This document shows, one piece after another, positions 8,474 through 16,949 of a stretch of 64,000 nt of DNA. The stretch comes from Cladosporium halotolerans (taxonomy: Eukaryota). The position numbers and the translations under genes were made by a program. Position 1 is the stretch's first letter. Each line of letters opens with the position of its first letter. The notes under the pieces were generated by a model. It was given only the letters and a program-made list of their open reading frames with translations. It made no database searches and was not told where the DNA came from. The stretch lies in NCBI RefSeq assembly GCF_011745625.1, contig NW_027191459.1:310001-374000 (forward strand), given 5' to 3'.

Positions 8474-8819
8474 ATTGACCGTAAATAGCTCTTCGACGAA
8501 TGGCGCAAGGCAAGCCGTCTGGTGTGTGCTTGACAGATGTAGATGAGTGCATGCCATCATGAAAATGTGAAGCTTTGGGTTGCTGCTCATGACTCGCGTT
8601 TGCTTGGCGCGACGTCTCGGAGACAGGTGCTATGGGCGACATCATCAATCATCAGCTGTCGCCTCACCTGCAACACCTCTTTCATCTTCGACCAAAAACG
8701 CGCATTTCCAAGACTTTGGACCTCGCGCAGGTGCTTTCATCAAATCTTTACATCTCATTTGAAATACTGAGTGACCCCTCAAAAGCTCTCCAAACCACCG
8801 AAACACACATTCAAACATC

Positions 8820-11625
8820 ATGGCGAAGGAGGAGGAGAAGAAGGCGCCTGTCCAAGACAAGGGCAAGGGTAAGGTTGACGATGCAAAGCAGACGAATGGC
8901 GATAAGAGCGAAAAGGCGGATGGCAAAGATGGCAAGAAGGGCGGCGACCTCGACCTGGCTCCAGAAGAGCTGAGCGAAGAAGACCAGAAGCTCAAGGACG
9001 AACTGGATATGCTGGCCGAGAGGTTAACGGAGGACGACAAGTCTCTGTACAAGCCAGCGCTTGATGCGATCAAAGAGAGCATCAAGACTAGCACAAGCTC
9101 CATGACCGCCGTACCGAAGCCGCTGAAGTTCCTCAGACCCCATTACGAAAAGCTATGCGAGACATACGAGAAGTGGCCTGCCGGAGAGGACAAGCAATCG
9201 CTGGCGGACACGCTGTCGGTGCTGGGAATGACGTACTCCGACGAGGAACGTTTGGACACACTGAAGTACCGTCTGCTGGCGCCTAACAAGGACATTGGAT
9301 CTTGGGGACACGAGTACATGCGCCATCTGGCTCTCGAGATCGGCGAGGAGTATCAGAAGCGCATGGAAGACGACAAGGACACAGAAGATCTGAGCGATCT
9401 CACCCGAACGCTCGTTCCTTTCTTCCTCTCTCACAACGCCGAGGCCGACGCAGTCGACATCCTTTCTGAGCTGGAGATGATCGAGGACATCAAGGACTAC
9501 CTGGACGAGAACACTTACTCGAGAGTCTGCCTGTATATGGTGTCCATGGTCCCTCTTCTTGCATATCCCGACAACGACCGCTTTGTGCGCACTGCCCACG
9601 ACGTGTACAGGCATTACAAGCAGCTCACTCAAGCTATGTGCCTTGCGATTCGCTTGAACGACATGGAGCTTATCAAATCCGACTTTGCTGCTGCGGAAGA
9701 CAAGGCACTCAAGCGCCAGCTTGCTTTTATTCTTGCGCGCCAGCGGATATGCCTGGAGCTCGAGGGTGAAGATGCCGAGGACACTGAACTGCAAGAGTGC
9801 TTGAACAACACGAAGCTCCCCGAGCACTACAAGTCCTTGGCGAAGGAGCTGAACGTCCTCGACCCGAAGGTGCCCGAAGACATTTACAAGTCACACCTCG
9901 AGTCTTCTCGTACTGCTGGCCTCACAAATACCGATTCCGCGCGCCACAACCTCGCCTCCGCATTCGTGAACGCGTTTGTGAACGCCGGATTTGGTGCCGA
10001 CAAGCTCATGCTGGTCGAGGGCGGCGTTCAGCAGAGCTGGATTTGGAAGGTGAAGGAGGACGGAATGACATCTACCGCTGCGTCTGCTGGTATGCTCATG
10101 CAGTGGGACGTGGAGATGGGATTGGACAAGATCGATGCATTTACATATGTGAGCGAGGAGCAAGTGAAGGCTGGTGCGGCATTGGCGACTGGCATCATCA
10201 ACAGCGGCGTCAGGCTGGACGGCGATCCCGCAATGGCGTTGCTCGGTGATCTGGAGGGCAAGAGTGTGTCCGTCAAGGTTGCAAGCATCATGGGTCTGGG
10301 TCTTGCATATGCTGGCTCGAACAAGGAGGACCTCTTGGAGCTGCTTCTGCCCTACGTGACCGACACCTCGCTTGACATGCAGATCTCTGCTATGGCTGCG
10401 CTCTCTCTTGGATTCATCTTTGTTGGCTCCGCGCAATCAGATGTGTCCGAAGCCATTATCCAGACTTTCCTGGACGAGGATCGCGCCAACCAGCTCAAGG
10501 ACAAGTGGACCAGGTTCATGACCCTCGGCCTTGCACTGCTATACTTTGGCCAGCAGGAAGAAGTCGATGTCGTTTTGGAGACGCTGAAGGTCATCGAGCA
10601 CCCCATGTCCAAGCCTGCCTCCGTGCTTGCTGAGATTTGTGCTTGGGCTGGCACTGGTGCTGTGCTGAAATTGCAGGAGCTCCTGCATATCTGCAATGAG
10701 CACATCGAGGACGAGCGAGACGATGACGACAAGGACAAGAAGGACGAAGAGAAGAAGGACCGCTCTGGCGACCAGCTCGTACAAGCTTACGCTGTTCTTG
10801 GTCTGTCCCTTGTGGGCATGGGCGAGGAGGTTGGTCAGGAAATGGTTCTGCGTCAATTCGGTCATCTCATGCATTACGGCGAGGCCAACATCCGCAAGGC
10901 TGTTCCGCTCGCAATGGGCCTTATCAGCCCTTCGAACCCACAGATGAAGGTCTACGACACCCTTTCAAGATACTCGCACGACAACGACATTGATGTCGCC
11001 GTCAACGCAATCTTCGCCATGGGAATGCTCGGTGCCGGTACGAACAACGCTCGTCTTGCGCAGCTTCTCAGGCAGCTGGCGAGCTACTACCACCGCGACC
11101 CTAACGCACTGTTCATGGTACGAATCGCGCAGGGTCTCGTACACATGGGCAAGGGTACCCTCAGTTTGAGCCCTTTCCACACCGACCGCAGTGTCCTCTC
11201 GCGTGTCGGCGCCGCAGGGCTCCTTACCATTACTCTCTCGCTTATTGACGACCCTCGACAATTTGTTCTTGGCGACCACCACTACCTCCTCTACGTCCTA
11301 GTCACTGCCATGCACCCGCGCTTCCTTATTACGCTTGACGAGGATCTTAAGCCTCTGCAGGTCAACGTGCGTGTAGGTCAGGCCGTTGATGTGGTCGGCC
11401 AGGCGGGTCGCCCAAAGACCATCACCGGATGGCAGACTCAGAGCACACCGGTGCTTCTTGGCTACGGCGAGCGTGCAGAACTGGAAGACGAGGAATGGAT
11501 TTGCTTGACCAACGTCATGGAAGGTGTCTGTATTCTCAGGAAGGTATGTGCTTTTTTGTATATCTGATGTCGTTGAGAATACTCGCTGACTGAAATCACA
11601 GAACCCTGACTGGGAAGCTTCGTAG
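8820..11625 (+). CDS. RPN1: 26S proteasome regulatory subunit Rpn1; exons 8820-11543 and 11602-11625
   Basis: SMTAVPKPLKFLRPHY, WGHEYMRHLA, PC repeats, VRVGQAVDVVGQAGRPKTITGWQT. Terminal intron GTATGT..GCTGAC..CAG gives C-terminus ILRKNPDWEAS-TAG. Confidence 0.97.
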
Positions 11626-11986
11626 AGCTTGAGTAAAGACCTGATGAACATGGGACCGCCAATGGCACTGTATGGCAAAAAGGGTGCAGCATAGCATATA
11701 GATCTTAGCCAATTGCTGCTACAGATGATGGCGCCCTTTCTGTATAATAATATGCATTCGTGAAAGACTTCATATCTCTCTCCATGGTGACTTCACGATC
11801 AACCGCGCCTGATTCGTCACCCCAGCCACGCTATTCGCAAGGCCTCTCACGTCGCGGCTAATTAGGGTTCAAGTTAAGCGCGTTAAGCGCGCAAGCGCGC
11901 GGCTGAGACACCTCCACCACTCGTGATGCCCCCAAACCTGAACACCACTCCTTCGTGTCTGACCTAGCGTGGCGTCTACCTTCACC

Positions 11987-14788
11987 ATGGCTACGACTCC
12001 CGTAGGCGACGTTCCGACGATATCCTCGTTGGAGGATTTCGACAACCTGGTCACAAAGCTTTTGAGGTGAGCTTCACGGCCCTTCCAACATCACCGCAGT
12101 AGTCACACCCTCGGCAAGCAGTAGTGCTGACGTGAGAATACGGAAGGCACATTTGTAAAGTAGTCACGGCCCCGTCGTCGTTCGAGGAACTGCGAACAAC
12201 TCATTACGCGCGGGCCTTACATCCGCTGGTCAAGCACTTGGTGGACAACGTCAATCACCCTGCCACAGTGCACGCCCTATTGTGAGTATACCAGTCTGAC
12301 ACGCTCTATTATACGGTATTGACTCCGATTTAGAGCGGTTAAAGGTCATTTCAGTGCTACAGAGGATGAAGATGACCGAGGTATCACCGCCGCGCGAGGC
12401 CTTGCATGTGAACTTGTGGCCTGGAGGTTTGTAACACACTTGACCGAACGAGACGCGATTGACCATCTGTGCTCGGACCTGGTGCAAAGAAGGCCATTTC
12501 AAGATGGTCGGCCTCACCAAGTCGCCGACGAAGAGTCCCCGCTGTTGCGAGACAGAGAAGCGGCTTCAGAGGAGCTGGGAGAGGACGACGATGCCGTCCT
12601 TGAGCCAACTGGTGGAGGCGAATCATTCGCCAAGAACTACGAGAGCTTGAATGCACTGGAAATTGCCGCCGTCTCTGGTGCGAAGAAGTTCTTGAGCCAG
12701 AAAGCGATACAGCGTATCATCGATGGTATGTGGCGAGGCGATATCATGTTCTGGCAGACCATGAGCCCACATGCTGTCAAACGAGCCACCGTCTACCACC
12801 CGAAGCGATTCGATCCATATACCAGATTGCGGGTGCCTCTGTACCTCAAGATATTTGAAGTCTTGTTTTTCGCTGCGTTCCTGGCGTTCTACTATACGGT
12901 TCTGGTACAGAGGTCGCTTCATGCTGTGACCGGAACAGAAGTCATGCTCTATGTTTGGCTCGCTGCCTTTGCGTACAACGGTACGTTGCGACTTCCCACG
13001 AGAACCTCTTACGCGATTCTAACAATCTCCATCAGAGCTTGTCGAGCTGTGCGACGCCGGCGTGACTTTCTACGCCGCGGACTTCTGGGCTATCTGGGAT
13101 TTGGGCATCATTGCCACGGGGATGTCGTTCTTCATCTGCAGGATGGTCGGCTTGAGCACAGATGACCACGTCACTACTGACACAGCCTTTGACATTCTGT
13201 CTGTCGAAGCCCTATTCCTCGTTCGGTAAGTCAAATTGAGATTTCGAACAGAAGGAAACTACTAATAATCCTTCAGTAAGTTTTGGTACTGGAATTGGAC
13301 TTCTGTGCTATTTTCTTCTAACTCATAATGACTGCTTTAGCGAGGATTTGCTCTCTACTCAGTCTCCATCCATACTTCGGGACGCTACTTCCATGCTTGA
13401 AGGAGATGACCAAAGACTTTATTAAGTTCCTTGGGCTGGTCTTCGTTCTATATCTGGGTTCGTATTGCGCCAAAACCATCCCACGAGCCAAGGCTAACAT
13501 GAGGAAGGCTTCAACACAACTTTTGGGTTCCTCGCACGCGGTACCTTTTCATTCCGGGAGATGAACTGGATCTTGATCAAAGTCTTCTTCGGCTCGAGCT
13601 ACCTTGGGTTTGTAAGTCCTTATCATTGCTCCGCGGAGGTTGCTTCGCCGCGCTAACTCGAGTGTTACCGCAGGACGTGGCAGAACAGGTATGCATCAAT
13701 CTCATGCTGTATTCGTGACACACATGCTGACTAGAAAAGGTTTCCCCTACCTTGGGACCAGGACTCATGCTCATTTTCTGCGCATTGACACAGTTCTTGT
13801 TACTCACCATCATTATCTGCTTGCTGTCCAACAGCCTCGAGAAGGTGGGCTTCCCGCACTCATCTAAGCGCCCGGACATCCAACAGCGAGCTAACGGGAT
13901 TCGGCTACATCGATAGGTCATGGAACACGCCCGAGACGAATACCTTTTTGTGTAAGTGGCGGAGCTACAGTTAATGACTGCGCCATCACCAGGCTAATTG
14001 CCGTCATACCAGCTACGCCGTCTACGTTTTGGAAGCTTCAACCTCCAATCGCTTGACCTACTTTCTCCCTCCACTGGTAAGCTACATTTTCGAACATGCC
14101 CGATCCATCCACACGTGCTCCTGCCATTCAGGATATGTTGGTCATGCGCACCTAGTCATGCAACGCGGACCATGTCGGGAAGCTTACATTCAAACGAGTT
14201 TGCTGGCTCTGCCAATGAGAAGTTTCTTTTGGGTAGCATATGTTGGACATGCAAGCTATTGAAATCTACATTGCTTGGGCGCACAGCACTTGCCATGTCG
14301 TCATCATTGCACTCATCGAGCCTCCGTTCTGGCTGACATGACACCCACAGAACCTTCTCCCCCTGCTACTCCGTCCGCTCCGGCTATTCGTCGCGCCTGA
14401 CAGCCTGCGCGCATGTCGCATTGCATTGCTCAAGGCAACCCACTGGCCGTTGGTGGCACTCATCCTTGCGTACGAGAACGGGCGGAGAGCCATCAGCGGT
14501 CGTAAGGAGTTTAGATCGTCCTTGACCACGCCCACCTCTTCGTCTTTGATGAGACGGCCTGTCTCCATGCAATCTCCGCTCATGAGCCACGGCGCTATTG
14601 GCTCGCCCCCAGGCAGGCAGAAGAACGCCGGCAATCTGTCGTCGGCGACCGGCGCCTCTGAATTCGAGAGCTCCCAGGGCAGGATCAATGCGCTCGAGAC
14701 ACTTGCAATCAGCTTGAAGTCGCAGCTGCAGACAGTGGAGTCCTTGATCGAGTCTGAAAAAGCTCGCAGCGCTGCACTGGATGCATGA
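11987..14788 (+). CDS. YVC1/TRPY1-like non-selective cation channel; 11 exons: 11987-12066, 12147-12281, 12334-12980, 13036-13224, 13341-13457, 13508-13611, 13674-13688, 13740-13844, 13917-13951, 14013-14076, 14351-14788
   Basis: Hand splicing gives a continuous frame: ARGLACELVAW, LNALEIAAVSGAKKFLSQ, RLRVPLY, AFDILSVEALFLVPRICSLLSLHPYFGTL, VFFGSSYLGF, YFLPPLNLLP, with multiple hydrophobic helices. Junctions are GT..AG except 13225-13340, which needs two-step splicing. Confidence 0.85.
13225..13340 (+). other. [D1,2] stwintron: internal intron 13226-13276 interrupts the donor of an external intron (G13225 + 13277-13340)
   Basis: Sequence C|G GTAAGT..ACTAAT..CTTCAG TAAGTT..TTCTAAC..TTTAG|CG. 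Only removal of all 116 nt keeps the frame (FLV-P-RICSLL). Confidence 0.85.
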
Positions 14789-15655
14789 CGAGGCCAGGTG
14801 GGCACCAACCAGGTCGCGGTGCAGACTCACCGGTACGGAGAGAATCTCCACACCGCAAGCTACTGAAGTTTGGTAAGGCATGCACTGCAGGTTAGCAGCA
14901 AATTGTTTGCCGCCGGCTCTGCGTGCACTTGCATGTGATGCTTCCGTAGCCGCGCTCCGTCCAAGGGCAGGGTGTGTTACTGGTTGACCACAGTAGCTTC
15001 TTCGCTGCGCCGCGTTTACCCCGGCCTAACGCCATCGGCTTTGGTCTAACGCACCGGCAACCCGCACGCTCGGGTCGTCGCCAAGCGACCAGCAAAGCCG
15101 TCTTTGCTCGTGCGTTGAGGGCAACGGCAGGGCTACCGGCCAGACATAGCACCCACGATGGCGCAGTCTCGCCGCAGTGTTGCAACACATATGAGCCCAA
15201 CTCCGATCCTGGGTGAACCCTCGAAGCATAGCCTTCCTGATCTTAGGCTGTCGACGTCCCTCCAGACCCTCGCTCTAACGCAAGCCTCATTCGCGCCTCC
15301 TTAGAGGCCATAACCGAGCAGCTAACACATGCAGACCCTAGAAAGTGCGCTATCCCGAATGATCTACCGTCCGCCTTGATGCATAGACCCTCATGGCTCT
15401 CGTCTTCACATGGGGTTGAGTCTAGGCGATCGTGGAACGCGGCATCGCTCTTAAGACAACTTGTGATGCCTTGTTTTCGTCCTCATCATCACATTCATCC
15501 TGTCAATACTCGAGTACAATTCTGAGGCTATTGCGTGAGTCCACGACGTGCTTTGCAATATCGAGGAACCAACGGCGCTCGATGCGTGCAGCCCGACGTC
15601 CCATCTGGAAGCGATCCTTAATCTTCACTTCATGCTTATTGCATGACTGAAGTCA

Positions 15656-16949
15656 ATGATGAGTTATTATCCGAGCGCTGGACCAAAGAGCAACCGCCAT
15701 GCTTCGCATTCGGGCGTGACACACGGCAGGCCTCAGCCAATTTCGACGGACCCGATGGAGACAACCAATTACAGTGCGCCGCACATGATGCCCTCCATGT
15801 ATCCATGGACCGGCTGGAACCAGCAGACAGCTTTCCAGTCTGGCACCATGCCACCCTCGGAACAAGTTGACTACACCAGCACCATGCGAAGCGCTGCAGG
15901 TCTTCCATATCTCCCTCCGACAGAAGGGCCCTCAGGAATCCCAAAAGGACACAACCCGCAGACAATTCAACCGTCGTATGTGTCTCCATATGCCGGTGTA
16001 TACGACAGCTCCCGTGTCATGGGATCGAACACGTCCTTGGATTGTCCAACATGGTCTTCGAACCATGTGCCTCTCAATTCACAACAACCATCTCCGAACC
16101 GATCGGATGGCAGCGTTACCACGCAGTTTTCCTCTCTTTCTTCACCTTACGGCGGTCCATCGCCTCTAGTCAAAGTGGAAGCTCAATGCGACCATCAGAC
16201 ATACGATCCACGATACTTTGTCGACAGTACTATGCAAAATCAGCCAAGGTTCGGCGGATCGGACATGAGCGGCACAGCCTCATCGCGGCCAAACAAACCT
16301 GTACGATTTTCGGACGATGTAAAGTACACCATCGAGCCTTATCAGACGTGTGACCTCCAGTCGCTTTCTTTATCGGACCCGAGAGTATTGACTCCGGACC
16401 CTTCGTCGACTCGTGCCTACAACTCTCCAGACGCCAGCGACCTCCAGTGCGGAGTCTGCGGCAAGCTATTCCAACGGGAAAACAACTTGAGGACGCACAT
16501 GAGAACACATGATCCTAACAGAGTTCACACTCATGTGTGCGACTATCCCGACTGCGGCGCCGTCATTGGTAGGAAAACCGATCTAGCCCGCCACCGGAAT
16601 AGCGTGAGTCCGCCATGGCAACAGCCTGCACCTGGGGAGTATTGATTACTGACTAGACTTCAGGTGCATTTGAAAAAGCGCCCATACCAATGCCAGCAGT
16701 GTGAGAGGTGTTTCGGGCGTGACGACATACTCAAAAGGTTGGTTCAGGACTCGTCATGCGACACTCAACAAGACCACGTGGGCTGACGACACCAACAGAC
16801 ATACCGCAGATGGTTGCTCAAAGCGGTCCGAGGTCAAAAAGCCATCGGGTAGGAGCCATCGACCGAGGACGAGGCGGTCCTCCTCCAACCTGATCTGCAC
16901 ACCATCGCCTGCGTCGTCCCCGGTTCATTGCCCAATGCCTCCGAACTAG
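15656..16949 (+). CDS. C2H2 zinc-finger transcription factor with three C-terminal fingers; introns 16604-16663 and about 16738-16798
   Basis: CGVCGKLFQRENNLRTHMRTH, CDYPDCGAVIGRKTDLARHRNS|VH and CQQCERCFGRDDILKR|H, reconstructed across canonical introns; P/S/Q-rich N-terminus. Confidence 0.88.

What the first reader, a model, noticed from the sequence alone, without database searches (positions are those of the whole stretch)
13225..13340. [D1,2] stwintron (intron nested inside the donor of another intron) in a YVC1-like channel gene
Seen: exon 4 ends GTT C (13224). Then come a lone G (13225), a complete 51-nt intron GTAAGT..ACTAAT..CAG (13226-13276), and TAAGTT..TTCTAAC..TTTAG (13277-13340). 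Removing the inner intron joins G to TAAGT, making a GTAAGT donor for a 65-nt second intron. The product C|CG AGG gives FLVPRICSLLSLHPYFG. One-step splicing 13226-13340 shifts the frame and stops at TAA 13423-13425. Using only the GTAAGT at 13276 leaves an in-frame TAA at 13227-13229. The base after the distal AG is C, so the alternative [A2,3] route is not available. Known: stwintrons are a rare intron class described in Pezizomycotina. Inference: channel expression needs ordered two-step splicing, and the frameshifted product could be an NMD-coupled control. I do not know whether this instance has been reported.
Basis: partly seen in the sequence, partly recalled or inferred. Interest (0 to 1): 0.88.

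Follow-up and report, generated by a model that had tools for sequence, protein, structure and literature searches.

The report
Nested twin intron in fungal channel gene
A fungal calcium-channel gene carries a 116-base intron-within-an-intron whose exact removal is seen in RNA data; it is a well-supported new example of a known rare intron type, sitting four bases from where relatives have an ordinary intron.

Summary
At 13225-13340 the sequence reads G | GTAAGT..ACTAAT..CAG | TAAGTT..TCTAAC..TAG. It fits the published [D1,2] stwintron search motif, once in 64 kb. A stricter motif of mine is expected 0.005 times per shuffled window.

Spliced RNA-derived contigs from two runs of different studies join 13224 directly to 13341, skipping 116 nt with GG..AG ends and no positional ambiguity. 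DNA contigs from two further runs keep G13225, so it is not an assembly error.

No single GT/GC-AG excision gives this junction. The only consensus two-step route removes 13226-13276 first, which recreates a GTAAGT donor. The junction restores a Pro found in 109 of 112 homologues. The RNA-supported 11-exon model encodes a 642-aa TRPY1/YVC1-like protein.

The splicing intermediate was not seen; only contigs were available. The NMD or regulatory idea is untested.

Among 78 informative related loci, 39 have an ordinary intron 4 nt downstream, in the Arg codon, 39 have no intron there, and none has a stwintron. This is a new member of a known kind, of moderate interest.

The parts
11987..14789 (+). 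TRPY1/YVC1-like cation channel gene, ATG to stop; 11 exons, 642 aa
   Evidence: Exon joints come from spliced contigs of runs X3 and X18. The assembled model has one open frame and aligns over 1-642 with P0002 residues 1-624 at 68.6% identity. Pfam finds LHD_TRPY1 and YVC1_C on single exons. A profile of the exon 3-7 region matches the PDB YVC1 chain 6whg_A, E 5.1e-6.
13036..13224 (+). Exon 4, ending GTT C; C13224 is the first base of the Pro codon
   Evidence: Joints 12979/13035 and 13224/13341; frame.
13225..13225 (+). G1 of the split donor of the external intron. It is intronic and absent from the mRNA.
   Evidence: Skipped in both spliced contigs. Present in the DNA contigs of X1 and X2, with no indel listed at this place.
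13226..13276 (+). Internal intron, 51 nt: donor GTAAGT 13226-31, branch element ACTAAT 13261-66 (branch A 13265), acceptor CAG 13274-76
   Evidence: Sequence. Fits the published motif. It is the only internal intron whose removal recreates a consensus donor.
13277..13340 (+). Rest of the external intron (65 nt with G13225): TAAGT 13277-81 completes the donor, branch element TCTAAC 13317-22 (branch A 13321), acceptor TAG 13338-40
   Evidence: Sequence; the 3' boundary is fixed by the RNA joint at 13341.
13341..13457 (+). Exon 5, beginning CG AGG ATT (completes Pro, then Arg-Ile-Cys...)
   Evidence: Joints; translation; the Pro-Arg-Ile-Cys-Ser motif is conserved in homologues.
13343..13344 (+). 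Exonic AG of the Arg codon. It lies at the position where relatives have their intron's exon boundary, and it is the acceptor of the unused in-frame alternative 13226-13344.
   Evidence: relatives: CCN AG|GT..AG|R; alternative product lacks the Pro; not seen in RNA contigs.
13423..13425 (+). TAA reached if the whole element minus G13225 is cut out in one step (13226-13340)
   Evidence: stop at residue 379.

Best explanation
Positions 13225-13340 form a [D1,2] spliceosomal twin intron (stwintron) between exons 4 and 5 of a TRPY1/YVC1-like channel gene of a Cladosporium-like Dothideomycete. An ordinary 51-nt U2 intron (13226-13276) sits between G1 (13225) and U2 (13277) of the donor of a second, 65-nt intron.

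Proposed mechanism:
1. The internal intron is excised using its own donor, branch A13265 and CAG acceptor.
2. That joins G13225 to TAAGT and creates a GTAAGT donor.
3. The external intron is then excised using branch A13321 and TAG 13338-40.
4. C13224 is joined to C13341, so the codon CCG (Pro) is formed and the frame is kept.

Shown: the sequence layout, the exact mature junction in RNA-derived contigs, the presence of G13225 in independent DNA, and the absence of any one-step canonical route. Inferred: the order of the two reactions and the existence of the intermediate. A one-step excision of 13226-13340, described as 'missplicing' for such elements elsewhere, would leave one G and give a truncated protein. 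Whether that happens here is unknown.
For: - **Layout.** All five motif elements are at the stated coordinates. The published [D1,2] motif hits once in the window, at 13225. A stricter motif is expected 0.005 times per shuffle.
- **RNA.** Contigs of X3 (8609 nt, depth 124.6, a slightly different strain) and X18 (1551 nt, depth 58, no substitutions against the window, one single-base gap at 12689) skip all ten introns. Both join 13224 to 13341, skipping 116 nt with ends GG..AG, ambiguity 0, and flanks of 119 and 116 nt.
- **DNA.** The X1 contig (16398 nt) has all 32 of its substitutions listed, none between 13122 and 13483, and no indel at 13225. An X2 contig covering 13141-13365 has one substitution and one inserted C behind 13312.
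- **Enumeration.** There are 0 one-step GT/GC..AG solutions for the observed junction. There are 2 two-step solutions, both with internal donor 13226. One recreates GTAAGT (3' end 13276); the other recreates a poor GTTTTG (3' end 13280).
- **Protein conservation.** In 103 of 112 homologues with both flanking exons matched, exactly one residue, Pro, lies between the exon-4 and exon-5 matches. Six more have Val/Ile-Pro-Arg and then depart. Three depart before the Pro.
- **Intron sizes.** The constituent introns (51 and 65 nt) are typical for this gene, where eight of the nine other introns are 50-80 nt and one is 274 nt.
- **A relative's annotation.** The deposited Cladosporium fusiforme model P0001 reads FLV-R and then 23 residues. 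These match the window's +1-frame translation after the distal acceptor (12 of 23 identical, pairwise E 4e-7). That is the error auto-annotation makes on 5'-GGT stwintrons (stated in PMC5587772 Methods).
Against: - The splicing intermediate (exon 4 + G|TAAGTT.., lacking only 13226-13276) was not observed. Only assembled contigs, which drop rare forms, could be laid. Depth in the two bins over the element equals the exonic share alone in X3 and X18, so these runs hold no unspliced, intermediate or misspliced contig there.
- X18 comes from the same sample as the run that holds 100% of the sampled words, so it may not be independent of the window's assembly. X3 is the independent one.
- A direct one-step cut at a non-canonical GG donor would give the same mature junction.
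- The one substitution in the X2 contig could not be placed, because its row was not shown.
Confidence: 0.86

Rival explanations
1. The 116 nt are removed in a single reaction from a non-canonical GG..AG intron. The 5' cut falls one base upstream of the GU, and the nested intron signals are coincidental.
For: The mature junction alone does not distinguish one step from two, and no intermediate was seen.
Against: A complete internal intron with donor, branch element and acceptor, followed at once by TAAGT, is expected 0.005 times per shuffled window. Two-step excision with a detectable intermediate has been validated for this layout in other fungi (PMC5587772 Introduction; PMC12403724 Introduction and Methods). 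From my own knowledge, not tested here: U1/U6 pairing to G|GUAAGU places the cut after the first G, not before it.
Confidence: 0.08
2. The functional intron is the plain GT-AG intron 13226-13344. It keeps the frame and gives a channel lacking the Pro (FLV-R-ICS). The 3' boundary is the one that relatives use.
For: It is in frame, and its acceptor lies at the position of the relatives' exon boundary.
Against: Both spliced contigs show 13224|13341, not 13225|13345. The Pro is present in 109 of 112 homologues. TAG 13338-40 is the first AG after the branch element. A minor isoform cannot be excluded from contigs.
Confidence: 0.02
3. G13225 is an assembly or sequencing error, and the locus holds one ordinary phase-1 intron.
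For: None found.
Against: DNA contigs from two other runs of other studies (X1, X2) carry the same sequence with no indel at 13225. The RNA joint skips 116 nt, not 115.
Confidence: 0.01

Closest known systems
[D1,2] stwintrons validated in Pezizomycotina, e.g. in the DHA1 antiporter gene of Aspergillus nidulans (Fekete et al. 2017, PMC5587772; abstract, Introduction and one Methods section read)
   Same: Same architecture: 5'-GGT, an internal U2 intron between G1 and U2 of the external donor, and HAG followed by TRWGY at the internal 3' end. It fits their search motif exactly. Exon fusion is confirmed by RNA, as in their validation.
   Different: A different gene (a TRPY1/YVC1-like channel) and a different lineage (closest annotated orthologues are Cladosporium spp.). 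The intermediate was not shown here.
Alternatively spliced [D1,2]/[A2,3] stwintrons (Helminthosporium solani, Trichoderma reesei DHA1), proposed as the route to 1-nt intron shifts (PMC5587772)
   Same: A complex intron lying close to, but not at, the intron position used by orthologues.
   Different: No G follows the distal acceptor (C13341), so the [A2,3] route is closed. The offset from the relatives' intron is 4 nt, not 1, so that model does not explain it.
Sequence-similar 'sister' [D1,2] stwintrons of Hypoxylaceae and Xylariaceae (PMC9024468, passages and a supplement table searched; PMC12403724, abstract, Introduction and two sections read)
   Same: A [D1,2] type at an intron position not shared with most relatives. 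A one-step excision product with one retained G is possible.
   Different: No similar copy was found in the 64-kb window or in 229,702 bases of related loci. Whole-element folding is not better than shuffles (z -1.33). A near-terminal duplex (-11.0 kcal/mol, matched or beaten by 20 of 1000 shuffles) is beaten by 2 of the 9 ordinary introns of the same gene. The element is 116 nt, against 184-185 nt for the near-identical Xylaria copies.
The ordinary phase-2 intron in the Arg codon of orthologues (CCN AG|GT..AG|R)
   Same: Same gene and same peptide motif. The mature mRNA around the junction reads the same, e.g. in L022.
   Different: That intron lies 4 nt downstream, is canonical and measures 47-74 nt. 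Its sequence is conserved within the nearest group of loci (z 5.4-11 among seven loci). It is not similar to either constituent intron of the window (z at most 2.1).

Membership tests
[D1,2] spliceosomal twin intron (stwintron) | A G immediately upstream of the most 5' donor (5'-GGTRWGY) that is intronic | tested here: met
   GGTAAGT at 13225-31. G13225 is absent from spliced contigs and present in DNA contigs.
[D1,2] spliceosomal twin intron (stwintron) | An internal U2 intron with its own donor, branch element and acceptor at allowed spacings (25-120 nt and 4-24 nt; at least 42 nt long) | tested here: met
   13226-13276, 51 nt, with spacings of 29 nt and 7 nt. Criteria from PMC5587772; regex hit.
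[D1,2] spliceosomal twin intron (stwintron) | Removal of the internal intron recreates a consensus donor for an external intron that has its own branch element and acceptor | tested here: met
   G + TAAGT gives GTAAGT. The branch element TCTAAC is 35 nt downstream of the donor, with a 15-nt spacer before TAG.
[D1,2] spliceosomal twin intron (stwintron) | The mature RNA lacks the whole element, and no single canonical excision can do that | tested here: met
   Joint 13224|13341 in 2 of 2 spliced contigs; 0 one-step GT/GC..AG solutions.
[D1,2] spliceosomal twin intron (stwintron) | A transient splicing intermediate ('splinter') lacking only the internal intron is detectable | not testable with these tools
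   Only Logan contigs could be laid. No contig with intronic sequence at this site in X3 or X18. The standard is described in PMC12403724 Methods.
Alternatively spliced [D1,2]/[A2,3] stwintron | A G directly downstream of the most 3' acceptor | tested here: not met
   C13341; feature defined in the Figure 1 legend of PMC5587772.
Propagating 'sister' stwintrons (Xylariales type) | Sequence-similar copies at other gene positions; near-terminal complementary repeats | tested here: inconclusive
   No copy in the window or in the 80 related loci, but no whole genome is held. The terminal duplex is not distinctive against the gene's other introns.
TRPY1/YVC1-like fungal TRP channel | LHD_TRPY1 and YVC1_C domains and a TRP-type transmembrane core | tested here: met
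   LHD_TRPY1 scores 27.6 bits against a cut-off of 27 on exon 3. YVC1_C scores 24.2 and 13.2 bits on single exons, below the cut-off of 27 because the domain is split by introns. Full-length homologues carry PF23317 and PF23190, and many carry PF00520. The profile matches TRP channels including YVC1 6whg_A.

The most novel reading that the evidence does not exclude
The stwintron did not arise inside the old intron. An ancient phase-2 intron in the Arg codon, kept in half of the related loci, was lost or displaced. A [D1,2] stwintron of unrelated sequence now sits 4 nt upstream in the Pro codon, with the mRNA sequence unchanged. This would be a natural case of intron replacement, or a 4-nt 'shift', through gain of a complete twin intron. 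The gain could be by reverse splicing, or by a propagating stwintron or introner-like family in Cladosporiaceae. That would extend stwintron propagation beyond the Xylariales. The frameshifted C. fusiforme model suggests the element is older than one species.
Probability: 0.2. Interest if true: 0.6.

Novelty: new member of a known kind. Interest (0 to 1): 0.38.

Why it matters
It adds an RNA-supported [D1,2] stwintron in a gene family and lineage where none was found in the literature I could search. That search covered 12 papers holding 'stwintron', none linking it to a YVC1/TRP channel. It also covered two sets of supplement tables, which list only a potassium channel. The 2013 and 2015 subscription papers, which I recall but which are not in the library, could not be searched.

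Practical consequence: gene predictors will mis-annotate this channel. The deposited C. fusiforme model appears frameshifted at exactly this junction.

Evolutionary interest: the element lies 4 nt from a widely conserved canonical intron position and shares no sequence with that intron. This makes the locus a compact test case for intron loss and gain versus sliding, once Cladosporiaceae genomes are compared.

Tried and rejected
- **Whole genome.** None is held for this window, so no genome-wide scan for sister copies or other stwintrons was possible.
- **RNA runs.** No listed holder is on record as RNA. Two of the four runs laid nevertheless turned out to hold spliced contigs.
- **Intermediate and misspliced forms.** No contig with the splicing intermediate, the unspliced form, the one-step misspliced form (13225|13341) or the Pro-less form (13225|13345) was present in X3 or X18. 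Contigs drop rare variants, so this says nothing about minor forms.
- **An apparent second oddity.** The joint 13612 to 13733 ('TA..CT', seven letters between) is an alignment quirk. It resolves into two canonical introns (13612-13673 and 13689-13739) around a 15-nt micro-exon, and that model gives an open frame. The joints 12278/12334 (AT..AG) and 13459/13510 (TC..GC) appear only in X3. X18 shows canonical GT..AG joints at the same two introns, so I read them as alignment effects of X3's differences from the window.
- **Homology of the constituent introns to relatives' introns.** Local alignment scores of the internal or external intron against 16 canonical introns of related loci are not above shuffles (z -1.2 to 2.1). 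The seven nearest loci match each other at z 5.4-11.
- **Structure of the element.** The MFE of -23.5 kcal/mol has z -1.33, and 19 of 200 shuffles fold as well. The near-terminal duplex test was inconclusive.
- **Rachicladosporium model P0009.** I could not decode why it leaves the frame after Val-Pro-Arg without its DNA.
- **Earlier findings of this scan.** Nothing was found.
- **Searches not run.** I did not search with the 27-residue frameshift peptide, because its score could not pass a database-wide threshold. I did not run a protein search to name the organism, because the verdict does not depend on it.
Full report
**1. What is in the sequence**

- Exon sequence ends ...TTC CTC GTT C at 13224, followed by a lone G at 13225.
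- A complete small intron runs from 13226 to 13276 (51 nt). Its donor GTAAGT is at 13226-31, its branch element ACTAAT at 13261-66 and its acceptor CAG at 13274-76.
- TAAGTT follows at 13277-82. The branch element TCTAAC is at 13317-22, the acceptor TAG at 13338-40, and the next bases are CGAGGATT.
- The upstream open frame has C13224 as codon position 1. The downstream frame needs 13341-42 as codon positions 2 and 3.

The layout fits the motif that the stwintron authors use to screen genomes for [D1,2] stwintrons: GGTRWGY N(25,120) DYTRAY N(4,24) HAGTRWGY N(25,120) DYTRAY N(4,24) HAG (PMC5587772, Methods section read). That motif matches the 64-kb window once on both strands, at 13225, length 116. 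A stricter motif of mine also matches only here. It occurred on average 0.005 times per dinucleotide-preserving shuffle, and 1 of 200 shuffles had a match.

**2. The gene**

- Single exons hit Pfam LHD_TRPY1 (27.6 bits, cut-off 27) and YVC1_C (24.2 and 13.2 bits, below the cut-off of 27 because introns split the domain).
- A search with exon 3 found 148 longer proteins, all fungal 'calcium channel YVC1-like' proteins of Dothideomycetes among the 120 listed. The best were Cladosporium fusiforme (65%) and C. allicinum (62%).
- A profile of the region around the junction matches TRP-channel transmembrane cores in the PDB, including yeast YVC1 (6whg_A, E 5.1e-6).
- No whole genome is held for the window.

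**3. RNA and DNA evidence**

One search for sequencing runs listed 23 runs, and I laid four on 11950-14800.

*Spliced contigs.* Two runs hold contigs that skip every intron of the gene, so they derive from RNA.
- X3: an 8609-nt contig, depth 124.6, from a strain differing at a number of sites.
- X18: a 1551-nt contig, depth 58, with no substitutions against the window and one single-base gap at 12689. X18 comes from the same sample as the run holding 100% of the sampled words.
- Both join 13224 directly to 13341. The joint skips 116 nt with ends GG..AG, no letters fit either side, and the flanks are 119 and 116 nt.

*DNA contigs.* Two runs hold unspliced DNA contigs.
- X1: one 16398-nt contig. 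All 32 of its substitutions are listed, none lies between 13122 and 13483, and there is no indel at 13225.
- X2: a 226-nt contig covering 13141-13365, with one substitution I could not place and one C inserted behind 13312, inside the external intron.
- G13225 is therefore real.

*Minor forms.* Depth in the two bins over the element equals the exonic share alone in X3 and X18. These contig sets hold no unspliced, intermediate or misspliced form there. Because contigs drop rare variants, that is not evidence against such forms.

**4. Why two steps**

- I enumerated every GT/GC..AG excision in 13195-13370.
  - No single excision gives the observed junction.
  - Two nested pairs do, and both start with the donor at 13226.
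  - Ending the internal intron at 13276 recreates GTAAGT. Ending it at 13280 recreates a poor GTTTTG and uses an AAG acceptor.
  - One-step removal of 13226-13340 leaves a G, shifts the frame and stops at TAA 13423-25.
  - Use of 13276-13340 alone, or retention, stops at TAA 13227-29.
One search does not show it.
- The Pro matters.
  - Among 112 homologues with both flanking exons matched, 103 have exactly one residue, Pro, between the two matches.
  - Six more read Val/Ile-Pro-Arg and then depart.
  - Three depart before it.
- With the RNA-supported joints the gene has 11 exons and 10 intervening sequences. It encodes 642 residues that align end to end with C. allicinum P0002 (68.6% identity over 1-642 against 1-624).
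- The constituent introns (51 and 65 nt) have the size of the gene's ordinary introns, eight of which are 50-80 nt and one 274 nt.
- The order of the two reactions, and the intermediate, are inferred by analogy with validated stwintrons (PMC5587772 Introduction; PMC12403724 Introduction and Methods). They are not shown here.
- The remaining rival is a one-step cut at a non-canonical GG donor, which I put at about 8%.

**5. Relatives**

One metagenome scan, using an alignment of 16 homologue segments, returned 80 loci. At this site:

| State at the site | Loci |
|---|---|
| No intron (CCN CGN/AGR read through) | 39 |
| Canonical intron in the Arg codon, CCN AG|GT(or GC)..AG|R, phase 2, 47-74 nt | 39 |
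| Site not on the locus (L067, L079) | 2 |
| Intron in the Pro codon or a [D1,2] layout | 0 |

- The published motif has no hit in the 229,702 bases of these loci.
- Among the 72 loci the script classified, there are 55 distinct site sequences: 30 canonical and 25 intron-free.
- The phase-2 intron occurs in loci from 36% to 79% identity to the query, so it is the old position. The window's element sits 4 nt upstream of it, while the mature mRNA reads the same as in, for example, L022.
- Neither constituent intron resembles the relatives' introns (z -1.2 to 2.1 against 16 introns). The seven nearest loci match each other at z 5.4-11.
- The stwintron therefore did not simply arise by insertion of an internal intron into the old intron's donor, which is the path described in PMC12403724's Introduction. 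Either the old intron was lost and a twin intron was gained 4 nt away, or the boundaries moved. I cannot tell which.
- The 1-nt shift model through a [D1,2]/[A2,3] intermediate (PMC5587772) does not apply. The offset is 4 nt, and C13341 closes the [A2,3] route.
- The deposited C. fusiforme model P0001 reads FLV-R followed by 23 residues. These match the window's +1-frame translation after the distal acceptor (12 of 23 identical, pairwise E 4e-7). It then returns to frame at FIKFLG.
  - That is the signature of a predictor cutting 5'-G|GT..AG in one step. The stwintron authors say auto-annotation always makes this error.
  - It suggests, without DNA, that C. fusiforme has the same element.
- C. 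allicinum P0002 reads Val-Pro-Arg-Ile-Cys normally.

**6. Comparison with propagating stwintrons**

- There is no similar copy in the window or in the related loci.
- The element's fold is not better than shuffles (z -1.33).
- A near-terminal duplex of -11.0 kcal/mol is matched or beaten by 20 of 1000 shuffles. However, 2 of the 9 ordinary introns of the same gene do better. This gives no support for the near-terminal repeat elements described in Xylariales (section read).

**7. Literature**

- Twelve papers in the library hold 'stwintron'.
- Only an unrelated review pairs it with 'channel'. Three pair it with 'Dothideomycetes', none on this gene.
- Supplement tables of PMC9024468 list one potassium-channel gene (pfam07885) and nothing for 'calcium', 'YVC1' or 'transient receptor'. 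The six supplement files of PMC12403724 hold none of these terms.
- The earliest stwintron papers, which I recall as subscription articles of 2013 and 2015, are not in the library.
- [D1,2] stwintrons are no longer very rare: more than 100 in one Hypoxylon genome and 288 sequence-similar ones in 14 Xylariales. One-step missplicing is described there too.

**8. Verdict**

The stwintron interpretation is supported by the exact RNA junction and by independent DNA. The two-step order is inferred, and the regulatory or NMD idea is untested. This is a new member of a known kind, with one evolutionary twist: a 4-nt offset from an ancient canonical intron. Interest is moderate.

Noticed in passing
window 13674-13688: A 15-nt micro-exon (encoding Asp-Val-Ala-Glu-Gln) lies between two canonical introns, 13612-13673 and 13689-13739. 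Both spliced contigs contain it. The read-laying tool reported it as an odd 'TA..CT' joint with seven letters between, because the micro-exon's end resembles 13733-39.
   Followed up: yes
window 14047-14388 and 14359-14800: In run X18 a 343-nt contig (depth 21.9) runs through the 274-nt last intron (14077-14350), which points to retention or unspliced RNA. The last exon lies on a separate 2042-nt contig of much higher depth (200.7 against 58). About 1600 nt of that contig lie outside the laid stretch, so another transcript may overlap the gene's 3' end.
   Followed up: no
protein P0001 (Cladosporium fusiforme) residues 346-369; P0009 (Rachicladosporium sp.) after Val-Pro-Arg: Deposited gene models of two relatives leave the reading frame exactly at this junction and return to it about 20 residues later. 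Models P0021, P0022, P0118 and P0119 read on into sequence after Pro-Arg, as expected if a phase-2 intron there was missed.
   Followed up: partly
loci L016, L058, L075, L076: In four related loci the conserved phase-2 intron at this site has a GC donor (AG|GCATGT or AG|GCAAGT) instead of GT.
   Followed up: no
window 8775-11567 (+) and 15647-16645 (+): The channel gene is flanked by two long open frames: an uninterrupted 930-codon frame upstream and a 332-codon frame downstream whose end shows Cys/His spacing like a C2H2 zinc finger. Neither was examined.
   Followed up: no
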